Source: Escherichia coli (GTDB lineage Bacteria; Pseudomonadota; Gammaproteobacteria; Enterobacterales; Enterobacteriaceae). From it: a DNA stretch of 64,000 nt. Position 1 is the first letter of the stretch; every line of letters starts with the position of its first letter. A program made the translations under genes and the position numbers. Positions 53,609 through 53,734 of this stretch are shown here, piece by piece. The notes beneath the pieces were generated by a model. The model was not told the origin of the DNA. It saw nothing but the letters and a program-made list of their open reading frames with translations, and made no database searches. The stretch lies in assembly GCF_048403405.1 (NCBI RefSeq), contig NZ_CP183129.1. One strand, 5' to 3'.

Positions 53609-53734
53609 TGCGGGTTACAATCGCACATTTGCGGGTTATAACTGCCGTTTTGCGGGTTACGTGCGGGTTATTGATTTCCTTTTTAATCATGCAGTTAATT
53701 AACTTATGCACAGGATAACCCGCATAACCCGCAA
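53609..53734. repeat. Iteron cluster B (candidate ori/crr), mirror image of cluster A
   Basis: TGCGGGTTA(C/T) at 53609, 53630 and 53651 (21-bp period) and at 53662, then a 44-bp AT-rich spacer, then the inverted ATAACCCGCATAACCCGCAA (53715-53734). It lies between the primase stop and the ssb start. Confidence 0.7.

What the first reader, a model, noticed from the sequence alone, without database searches (positions are those of the whole stretch)
53609..53734. Iteron cluster B between the primase stop and the ssb start, an inverted copy of the cluster A architecture
Seen in the sequence: TGCGGGTTA(C/T) occurs at 53609, 53630 and 53651 (21-bp period), with a fourth copy at 53662. A 44-bp AT-rich stretch (ttgatttcctttttaatcatgcagttaattaactt...) follows, and then two abutting inverted units ATAACCCGC-ATAACCCGC (53715-53734).

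This is the reverse-complement layout of 43228-43384. Iterons plus an AT-rich unwinding region next to the replication gene are the classic signature of an origin, and this cluster is the better ori candidate of the two.

Because the two clusters are in inverted orientation, recombination or looping between them would invert or enclose the cargo segment. This is speculative.
Basis: partly seen in the sequence, partly recalled or inferred. Interest (0 to 1): 0.5.

Follow-up and report, generated by a model that had tools for sequence, protein, structure and literature searches.

The report
Half of a split satellite replication origin
The repeats are real. They form the initiator-binding half of the replication origin of a 19-kb phage-satellite island (PICI) in E. 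coli, an already known kind of origin, and its second half has been moved 10 kb away to the far end of the island.

Summary
GCGGGTTAY occurs 12 times in 64 kb against 0.9 expected, with 6 copies in cluster B and 5 in cluster A.

The element is a ~19-kb Gram-negative PICI-type satellite at 42757-61779. It carries int, alpA, a Bro/Rha/AntA zone, DUF4222, a DUF927 Rep, ssb, ProQ and late genes.

Cluster B lies 24 bp after the Rep stop. It has the layout of SaPI and EcCICFT073 origins: four iterons, a 43-bp easily melted spacer, then two inverted iterons.

The "primase" has no detectable primase domain. It is a SaPI-Rep/Cch-like helicase-initiator. Its last ~90 residues change together with the iteron word in relatives.

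Clusters A and B are not two rival origins. In 11 other genera, in EcCICFT073 and in an E. coli O157 cf-PICI that has the same iteron, both units sit side by side as one 12-iteron origin of about 220-420 bp. In this lineage ssb, ProQ and the late genes lie between the halves, 2-11 kb apart. At least 27 of 39 further loci are split in this way.

Both halves keep invariant, matching iterons, so both are probably used. Which half fires cannot be told from sequence. No inversion of the enclosed segment was seen.

This is a known kind of origin in a new, split arrangement. Interest is moderate.

The parts
53609..53733 (.). Cluster B, the Rep-proximal half-origin. It has six 9-10-bp iterons (TGCGGGTTAY). 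Four are direct (53609, 53630, 53651, 53662) and two are inverted and abutting (53715-53723, 53724-53733).
   Evidence: Across 25 distinct homologous sequences, 52 of 54 iteron columns are invariant.
53672..53714 (.). A+T-rich spacer of cluster B, the presumed unwinding region. It contains the window's only perfect DnaA-box consensus, TTATGCACA, at 53704-53712.
   Evidence: (99.4th percentile of instability within the element) and for the DnaA box.
53757..55883 (-). Residues 1-165 form a domain shared with EcCICFT073 Pri-Rep. Residues 169-436 are DUF927. Residues ~621-708 are the iteron-specificity region, with a winged-helix-like end.
43229..43382 (.). Cluster A, the displaced distal half-origin. 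It has two abutting iterons (43229-43237, 43238-43246) plus a degenerate third (43247-43255), a 74-bp A+T-rich spacer (43257-43330), and three inverted iterons at a 21-bp period (43331, 43352, 43373).
   Evidence: Across 14 distinct sequences, 43 of 45 iteron columns are invariant, against 43 of 76 for the spacer and 13 of 24 for the linkers. It is homologous to L019 13001-13155, which lies inside a contiguous origin.
43202..43231 (.). Conserved near-palindrome TTTTCGTATATATACAAAAC abutting the outer iterons of cluster A. The same motif (GTTTTGTTTATATATACGAAAA) ends the contiguous origins of most relatives.
   Evidence: (I10).
53124..53546 (-). ssb, the first gene lying between the two half-origins.
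   Evidence: (PF00436).
42757..61779 (-). The whole satellite island (Gram-negative PICI type). It carries int 60311-61663, alpA 58974-59192, Rha 58201-58899, AntA 57465-58208, DUF4222 55880-56182, Rep, ssb, ProQ 52590-53087, and a late module at 44091-51523.
   Evidence: The empty site was found in E. coli 4621.

Best explanation
Cluster B is the Rep-proximal half of the replication origin of a ~19-kb PICI-type phage satellite.

Proposed mechanism:
1. The DUF927 helicase-initiator encoded just upstream recognises the 9-bp iterons through its C-terminal winged-helix-like region.
2. It occupies the four iterons on one side and the two inverted iterons on the other side of a 43-bp easily melted spacer.
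3. It opens the spacer and loads itself as a hexameric helicase, as described for SaPI Rep.

Cluster A is the second half of the same origin:
- In relatives the two units are adjacent and total 12 iterons.
- In this Escherichia lineage ssb, ProQ and the late genes lie between them. Unit A now sits about 0.5 kb from the distal island end, which is next to attP and int in the excised circle.
- Both halves are kept under selection and match the same Rep. They act either as two separate loading sites or together through looping.

What is shown and what is inferred:
- Shown: the anatomy, the homology to validated origins, the co-variation of the Rep C-terminus with the iteron word, the ancestral contiguity, and the conservation of the iterons.
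- Inferred: binding, melting, self-loading, and which half fires.
For: 1. Non-random repeats with a SaPI/PICI-origin layout lie 24 bp after the rep stop. The literature describes this layout and its function (PMC9371898, PMC6092414).
2. Rep is homologous to SaPIbov1 Rep and to Cch. By sequence, 8tch scores E 1.7e-14. By predicted fold of residues 441-708 (pLDDT 80.6), 8tch scores E 5e-5 and 5dgk 1e-4, followed by winged-HTH proteins.
3. Specificity co-variation:
- Window and L002 Reps are 93-99% identical over residues 151-560 but only 33% over 621-708. The iteron changes to CTTGTCCCA in both clusters.
- L003 keeps the iteron and a 95%-identical C-terminal region, although its DUF4222 (46%) and int (29%) differ.
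- L007 and L016 have the iteron GTGGGTTA and a C-terminal region 67-69% identical to the window's.
- At least eight different iteron words appear in one conserved architecture.
4. Contiguity in relatives:
- L007-L017, L004 and L005 (EcCICFT073) carry both units within about 220-420 bp.
- L019, an E. coli O157 cf-PICI, has the same iteron in a contiguous 12-iteron origin. It aligns to window B at 86% and to window A at 82% identity.
5. The split form is common and stable:
- It occurs in the window, L001, L002, L003 and L006, with four different gene sets between the halves.
- At least 27 split loci against 12 contiguous ones were found among IMG/VR loci of this iteron class.
6. Iterons are invariant while linkers and spacers vary.
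7. Both spacers are in the top 1% of melting propensity within the element.
Against: - There is no experimental evidence for this element. Binding, melting and initiation are all inferred by homology.
- Rep lacks a recognisable primase domain, so priming must come from elsewhere.
- The C-terminal ~100 residues did not align to SaPI Rep by sequence. Only the fold search links them, with TM about 0.47-0.50 normalised to the query.
- The contrast between iterons and linkers is weak for cluster B because that whole region is conserved.
- It is unknown whether half an origin (6 iterons) is sufficient. In P4, the cluster beside the primase gene is crr and not the annotated origin.
Confidence: 0.8

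Rival explanations
1. Cluster B alone is the functional origin. Cluster A is an accessory Rep-binding site that titrates Rep or pairs with B ('handcuffing') to limit copy number, as the extra iterons do in P1 incA and F incC.
For: B keeps the canonical position right after rep. Extra-origin iteron arrays with control functions are established plasmid biology (my own knowledge; general reviews are listed). A sits in about 1 kb of non-coding DNA at the island end.
Against: A has the full origin layout: inverted iteron sets around an equally unstable spacer. It also carries the conserved TATATATA motif that is part of contiguous origins. A satellite that replicates in a burst after induction has little obvious need for copy-number limitation.
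Confidence: 0.2
2. There is a P4-like division of labour. Replication starts at the distal cluster A, which plays the role of P4 ori. Cluster B, directly after the replication gene, is a cis-acting enhancer like P4 crr.
For: The P4 record shows crr (4291-4590) immediately after the alpha stop (4636) and ori 4.7 kb away, both built from the same type-1 repeats. Cluster A carries the extra conserved (TA)n near-palindrome that could serve as the true unwinding element.
Against: Rep is not homologous to P4 alpha (E 0.11). In SaPIs and EcCICFT073 the origin is the cluster after rep. B has no crr-like 120-bp direct repeats. In most relatives the two units are contiguous, so no such division is ancestral.
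Confidence: 0.12
3. The repeats are mainly transcriptional operators. Rep, or another island protein, binds them to control read-through from rep into ssb and the late genes.
For: Cluster B lies inside a co-directional operon between rep and ssb, with no terminator predicted. In contiguous relatives the outer iterons of unit A lie just upstream of the next gene.
Against: No convincing promoter was found in either cluster. One 9-of-12 match on the non-coding strand is at shuffle level. In the split form, cluster A is followed by no gene, yet its iterons stay invariant. The architecture equals that of validated origins.
Confidence: 0.07
4. The two inverted clusters are recombination substrates that invert the enclosed 10-kb segment.
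For: The clusters are in inverted orientation and share 9-bp words. The best arms are 53 nt at 75% and 25 nt at 88% complementarity.
Against: Homology is too short and interrupted for RecA recombination, and no invertase gene was found. In every split locus examined, ssb follows B in the rep orientation. That covers the window, L001, L002, L003 and L006 plus 26 IMG/VR loci, 8 of which show both halves in the same relative orientation.
Confidence: 0.02

Closest known systems
SaPI origins (SaPIbov1, SaPI1, SaPI5) with Rep self-loading helicase
   Same: - The origin lies immediately 3' of rep.
- It has 6-12 short iterons.
- An A+T-rich centre is flanked by at least two iterons on each side pointing in opposite directions (PMC9371898).
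- Rep is a homologous DUF927/MCM-like helicase with a C-terminal DNA-recognition region.
   Different: - The host is Gram-negative.
- The iterons are 9 bp where SaPI iterons are 5-6 bp.
- The full origin consists of two such units (12 iterons, two A+T-rich spacers), and here the units are 10.2 kb apart.
- There is no separate or fused primase domain.
Gram-negative PICI origins: EcCICFT073 (experimentally validated) and the EcCIEDL933-like cf-PICI of E. coli O157
   Same: - The island backbone is the same: int, alpA, Icd-like, DUF4222, rep, ori, ssb, PerC, late zone.
- Iteron sets flank A+T-rich DNA downstream of pri/rep (PMC6092414).
- The O157 island has the identical iteron word, and its Rep C-terminal region is 85% identical.
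   Different: - In both reference islands the origin is contiguous, and ssb follows the whole origin.
- Here ssb, ProQ and the late genes sit between the halves.
- EcCICFT073 uses a different helicase family (D5_N/DUF5906/Pox_D5) and a different iteron, GGTAGAYA.
Satellite phage P4 ori / crr
   Same: - Two clusters of the same initiator-binding repeat lie kilobases apart on a small satellite.
- One cluster comes directly after the replication gene, and one lies next to attP.
   Different: - The P4 alpha protein is unrelated in sequence and carries Zn-ribbon and Toprim primase domains.
- crr consists of two 120-bp direct repeats.
- In P4 the same cluster (crr) is both next to the replication gene and next to attP. 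Here these are two different clusters.
- The P4 arrangement is not known to derive from a contiguous origin.
Bipartite or multi-site origins such as R6K alpha/beta/gamma and Helicobacter pylori oriC1/oriC2
   Same: Initiator-binding clusters separated by a gene or by kilobases may cooperate by looping (H. pylori: title; R6K: my own knowledge).
   Different: The initiators are different (pi, DnaA). Cooperation is not shown here.

Membership tests
SaPI/PICI-type Rep-iteron origin | Located immediately downstream of the rep (pri-rep) gene | tested here: met
   The first iteron lies 24 bp after the Rep stop.
SaPI/PICI-type Rep-iteron origin | Six to twelve short iterons, with at least two on each side of an A+T-rich region, pointing in opposite directions | tested here: met
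   There are 4 + 2 iterons around a 43-bp spacer in B, and 12 in B plus A. The definition is from PMC9371898.
SaPI/PICI-type Rep-iteron origin | Cognate Rep is a helicase homologous to SaPI Rep, with a C-terminal DNA-recognition (winged-helix) domain | tested here: met
   phmmer against 8tch gives E 1.7e-14. The fold of residues 441-708 matches 8tch and 5dgk, then wHTH proteins. The close homologue L019 Rep hits HTH_56 below the Pfam cut-off.
SaPI/PICI-type Rep-iteron origin | Iteron sequence is specific to the cognate Rep | tested here: met
   The Rep C-terminus (residues 621-708) tracks the iteron word across 16 loci. DUF4222, int and ssb do not.
SaPI/PICI-type Rep-iteron origin | Rep binds and melts the origin; rep-ori drives autonomous replication | not testable with these tools
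   This needs EMSA or footprinting and a plasmid-maintenance assay as in PMC6092414.
Gram-negative PICI | int, alpA and pri/rep transcribed in one direction, with ori after rep | tested here: met
   int 60311-61663, alpA 58974-59192 (PF05930) and Rep 53757-55883 are all on the minus strand.
Gram-negative PICI | A 10-20 kb island with defined ends at an att site | tested here: met
   The island spans 42757-61779 (19.0 kb). The empty site in E. coli 4621 has a 12-bp overlap, and the att repeat is imperfect (8 of 12).
Gram-negative PICI | No complete phage morphogenesis or lysis set of its own | tested here: met
   The only virion-related genes are four epsilon15/phiV10-like ones. No terminase, portal, capsid, tail or holin was found.
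Gram-negative PICI | Helper-phage-dependent induction, replication and packaging | not testable with these tools
   The helper is unknown. An epsilon15/phiV10-like podovirus is suggested only by the late genes.
P4 ori/crr replicon | Two separated clusters of the same initiator-binding repeat | tested here: met
P4 ori/crr replicon | Alpha-type primase-helicase (Zn ribbon, Toprim, D5_N, DUF5906, Pox_D5) | tested here: not met
   BLASTP against P4 alpha gives E 0.11. None of these Pfam domains is present in the window protein.
P4 ori/crr replicon | crr built of two 120-bp direct repeats | tested here: not met
   Clusters A and B are single units in inverted orientation.
Iteron plasmid replicon (RepA/pi type) with control iterons | Rep_3/RepA-type winged-helix initiator that needs the host helicase | tested here: not met
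   Pfam finds only DUF927. The initiator is itself a helicase homologue.
Iteron plasmid replicon (RepA/pi type) with control iterons | DnaA box at the origin | tested here: inconclusive
   The only perfect TTATNCACA in the window lies in the B spacer (53704-53712). It is kept in L001, L003 and L019, but no perfect box lies in the origin region of any locus with another iteron word.

The most novel reading that the evidence does not exclude
The two half-origins, each with six iterons (one Rep hexamer's worth of DNA-binding domains), still work as one origin across 2-11 kb. Rep assemblies on A and B would pair by looping to form the double hexamer needed for bidirectional replication. This would be a natural split origin for a self-loading MCM-like helicase. 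It would also be a convergent counterpart of P4 ori/crr, and the island's ssb and late module would be enclosed in the loop.
Probability: 0.25. Interest if true: 0.6.

Novelty: new variant of a known kind. Interest (0 to 1): 0.4.

Why it matters
PICI and SaPI origins are understood as compact units placed right after rep. This work shows that a large Escherichia PICI lineage carries the same 12-iteron origin cut in two. The island's ssb and late genes lie between the halves, and both halves are kept intact and matched to Rep.

If both halves are needed, the lineage is a natural test of several questions:
- whether self-loading Rep helicases need a 12-site double-hexamer platform or only six sites;
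- how far apart the two platforms can be;
- whether the arrangement influences which part of the island is replicated first.

There is also a practical point. Origin annotation in satellites should look for a second, distal half. The Rep C-terminus and iteron pairs listed here (at least eight words) provide a specificity table for incompatibility and engineering studies.

Tried and rejected
- Prophage origin. The flanked genes resemble epsilon15/phiV10 virion proteins. The replication protein, however, has no close relative in those phages. Only one phage record matched over at least 80% of the protein, a 106-kb Klebsiella phage record at 66% identity. The other hits were short fragments, small satellite-like records or distant proteins. 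I therefore dropped the idea that this is an epsilon15-type phage origin.
- Structured RNA. An Rfam scan of 40700-62100 at E <= 1 gave only one chance lncRNA hit. No RNA family explains the repeats or the conserved block next to cluster A.
- Promoters and terminators. Consensus scans around both clusters were at shuffle level, so they give no support to an operator or terminator reading.
- tRNA-linked att site. There is no tRNA in the window. The island uses a protein-gene-proximal site.
- ORFs overlapping cluster A. The 162-aa plus-strand ORF at 42772-43260 and the small ORFs in 42757-43790 have no family hits and are not conserved as reading frames. I treated them as non-coding.
- A 1-mismatch iteron at about 53500. 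It lies in the conserved ssb N-terminal coding sequence, and the same bases occur in L006, which has a different iteron. I dismissed it as chance.
- Literature. Searches for a described split or dual PICI origin found nothing. The library is incomplete, so novelty is not proven.

Full report
**1. The observation**

- TGCGGGTTAY starts at 53609, 53630 and 53651 (21-bp period) and again at 53662 (11 bp later).
- A 43-bp A+T-rich spacer follows at 53672-53714.
- Two abutting inverted units lie at 53715-53723 and 53724-53733.

GCGGGTTAY occurs 12 times in the 64-kb window, against 0.88 +/- 0.92 in shuffles (largest 3). Eleven of the 12 copies lie in this cluster or in cluster A at 43229-43382.

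Cluster A has the mirror-image layout: two abutting units plus a degenerate third, a 74-bp spacer, and three units at a 21-bp period on the other strand.

Both spacers are among the 1% least stable 40-mers of the element.

**2. The context**

The window is E. coli chromosome. A 19.0-kb island at 42757-61779 is inserted between a leucine-rich-repeat protein gene and dadX. The empty site is present in strain 4621 and others.

All island genes are on the minus strand:
- int 60311-61663, a 216-aa protein, alpA 58974-59192, Rha, AntA, a 345-aa ORF (annotated in L001 as an Icd-like gene plus a BRO-N gene), an 85-aa protein and DUF4222;
- the 708-aa replication protein at 53757-55883, then cluster B;
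- ssb, a ProQ/FinO protein and a 138-aa protein;
- four genes matching virion-protein families of epsilon15/phiV10-type podoviruses at 44091-51523;
- about 1 kb of non-coding DNA holding cluster A, then the island end.

This is the architecture of Gram-negative phage-inducible chromosomal islands, with a Bro zone, a replication zone and a late zone (PMC10111431; PMC6092414). The same backbone occurs in E. coli ExPEC XM at another att site (L001), in EcCICFT073 (L005) and in cf-PICIs (L003, L019).

**3. The replication protein**

- Pfam finds only DUF927, at residues 169-436. There is no Zn ribbon or Toprim, unlike its 919-aa relative in L004 or P4 alpha.
- Residues 1-165 are 42% identical to the N-terminus of EcCICFT073 Pri-Rep.
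- Its best solved relatives are SaPIbov1 Rep (8tch, E 1.7e-14) and the SCCmec helicase Cch (5dgk).
- An AlphaFold model of residues 441-708 (46-sequence alignment, pLDDT 80.6) again matches 8tch and 5dgk best (E 5e-5 and 1e-4). The next matches are winged-helix DNA-binding proteins.

The protein is therefore a SaPI-Rep-like helicase-initiator and not a demonstrable primase.

**4. Cluster B is a PICI/SaPI-type origin element**

SaPI origins lie immediately downstream of rep. They hold 6-12 iterons, with an A+T-rich centre and at least two iterons on each side pointing in opposite directions. Rep recognises them through a C-terminal winged helix and loads itself (PMC9371898).

[quoted passage not shown] Cluster B meets every sequence-level criterion.

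Comparative evidence links the iterons to Rep:
- L002 and L006 Reps are 93-99% identical to the window's over residues 151-560 but only 33% over residues 621-708. Their iteron is CTTGTCCCA, in the same architecture.
- L003 keeps both the iteron and the C-terminus (95%), while its DUF4222 (46%) and integrase (29%) differ.
- L007 and L016 have the iteron GTGGGTTA and the most similar foreign C-termini (67-69%).
- Other words are CGTGGTTCA, GTTGGTTCA, TGGGAYAAG, a (C/T)CGGTTCA-type word, TGTTGTCTC and GGTAGAYA.

**5. Clusters A and B are two halves of one origin**

With Rep on the plus strand, the general plan is as follows:
- about 25 bp after the stop, two abutting iterons;
- a 54-64-bp step across an A+T-rich spacer;
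- four inverted iterons at 11/21/21 bp;
- a linker holding one more iteron;
- two iterons at 21 bp;
- a second A+T-rich spacer;
- three abutting inverted iterons;
- the motif GTTTTGTTTATATATACGAAAA.

This usually gives 12 iterons in about 250-420 bp. The plan holds in 11 loci from other enterobacterial genera (L007-L017) and in L004. In looser form it holds in EcCICFT073 (L005, 8 iterons in 226 bp).

An E. coli O157 cf-PICI (L019) has the same iteron as the window and a Rep C-terminal region 85% identical, and its origin is contiguous.
- Window 53609-54100 aligns to L019 13210-13700 at 86% identity.
- Window 43213-43365 aligns to L019 13001-13155 at 82% identity.
- The breakpoints therefore lie at the inner edges of the two units.

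In the split form the linker iteron is gone and unit A has three spaced iterons, so each half has six.

**6. The split form is widespread and maintained**

- The halves are 2.2 kb apart in L002 and L006, 8.4 kb in L003, 10.2 kb in the window and 10.8 kb in L001. Four different gene sets lie between them.
- The window and L001 are 99.7% identical on both sides, but 44092-51105 has no nucleotide match.
- Of 43 IMG/VR stretches carrying three 21-bp-spaced TGCGGGTTAY units, 12 have the contiguous origin.
- At least 27 have a six-iteron B unit next to rep, followed directly by ssb wherever ssb falls within the stretch (26 loci). Eight of them show both halves, 7.5-10.5 kb apart.
- Across 14 distinct A sequences, 43 of 45 iteron columns are invariant, against 43 of 76 spacer columns and 13 of 24 linker columns. 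Across 25 distinct B sequences the figures are 52 of 54, 29 of 45 and 17 of 24.
- The split islands share the junction that follows unit A, which suggests a single split event. Two iteron specificities now exist in matched pairs.

Both halves are thus under selection to match Rep.

**7. How it most likely works**

Rep binds the six iterons of a unit, melts the spacer and self-loads. The island thus has either two loading sites or one looped, 12-site platform. All of this is inference from homology.

Which half fires first cannot be decided from sequence. In P4, a satellite with two clusters of one repeat, the cluster directly after the primase gene is crr and the annotated origin lies 4.7 kb away. 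However, P4 alpha is unrelated to this Rep.

The rivals are set out in the structured fields: A as a control site, a P4-like division of labour, operators, and inversion. No inverted isomer was seen in any split locus.

**8. Novelty**

The origin type is known. I did not find the split arrangement described in the searchable literature. I rate it a new variant of a known kind, of moderate interest.

Noticed in passing
window 44091-51523 (minus strand): The satellite's late zone consists of four genes matching virion-protein families of epsilon15/phiV10-type podoviruses: phrog_11983, phrog_684, phrog_3003, and phrog_1044 with an SLT transglycosylase domain. No capsid, terminase or tail genes are present. 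Between two otherwise 99.7%-identical islands (window and L001), 44092-51105 has no nucleotide match, so this module is exchanged as a cassette. A PICI that carries only large internal or ejection-type virion proteins looks unusual and hints at an epsilon15-like helper.
   Followed up: partly
window 53704-53712: The only perfect DnaA-box consensus (TTATNCACA) in the whole 64-kb window lies inside the cluster B spacer, 2 bp from the inverted iterons. It is kept, with a change at the N position, in L003 and L019. No perfect box lies in the origin region of loci with other iteron words. The single perfect box in P4 abuts crr.
   Followed up: partly
window 43090-43228: A ~140-bp block next to cluster A is conserved among split islands whatever their iteron. 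It includes the invariant stretch TATATATACGAAAAATTGCATTCAGG. Its outer part (query positions 2-69 or 2-137) also occurs alone in many E. coli genomes, so it may be a generic PICI end segment. Its function is unknown: no ORF, no Rfam hit and no clear promoter.
   Followed up: partly
window 53757-55883: The replication protein lacks any recognisable primase domain. Its relative in L004 has a Zn ribbon and Toprim. The first 165 residues are instead shared with EcCICFT073 Pri-Rep, which has a different helicase family. This looks like a portable N-terminal domain of unknown function.
   Followed up: partly
window 42745-42756 and 61768-61779; L001 3104-3114 and 23229-23239: An integrase that is 100% identical sits in two different chromosomal sites: LRR-gene/dadX here and dinD/yicC in ExPEC XM. 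The flanking repeat here is imperfect (TTAATCAACATT versus TTATTCGATATT), which suggests a secondary att site. No complete E. coli genome in the collection has the island at this site.
   Followed up: partly
window 42824-42847 and 61637-61660: 24-bp direct repeats, ATTATGTACACC(CT/TC)TATGTACACG, lie about 70 and 120 bp inside the two island ends. They are probably integrase arm-type binding sites (D11).
   Followed up: no
window 52590-53087: A ProQ/FinO-family RNA-chaperone-like protein is encoded next to ssb inside the island. It is also present in L001, L002 and L006 but absent from the cf-PICI L003.
   Followed up: no
window 41412-42758: The leucine-rich-repeat protein gene just outside the island contains an array of eleven overlapping 12-bp-period repeats at 41725-41907 (encoding EENLQ-like repeats) and 9-bp GAAGCTGGA repeats at 42578-42613.
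   Followed up: no
L003 (E. coli FELIX_MS724) 5279-20780: A cf-PICI with the split origin is inserted inside a prophage terminase large-subunit gene. This is a helper-embedded configuration like that described in PMC10111431.
   Followed up: no
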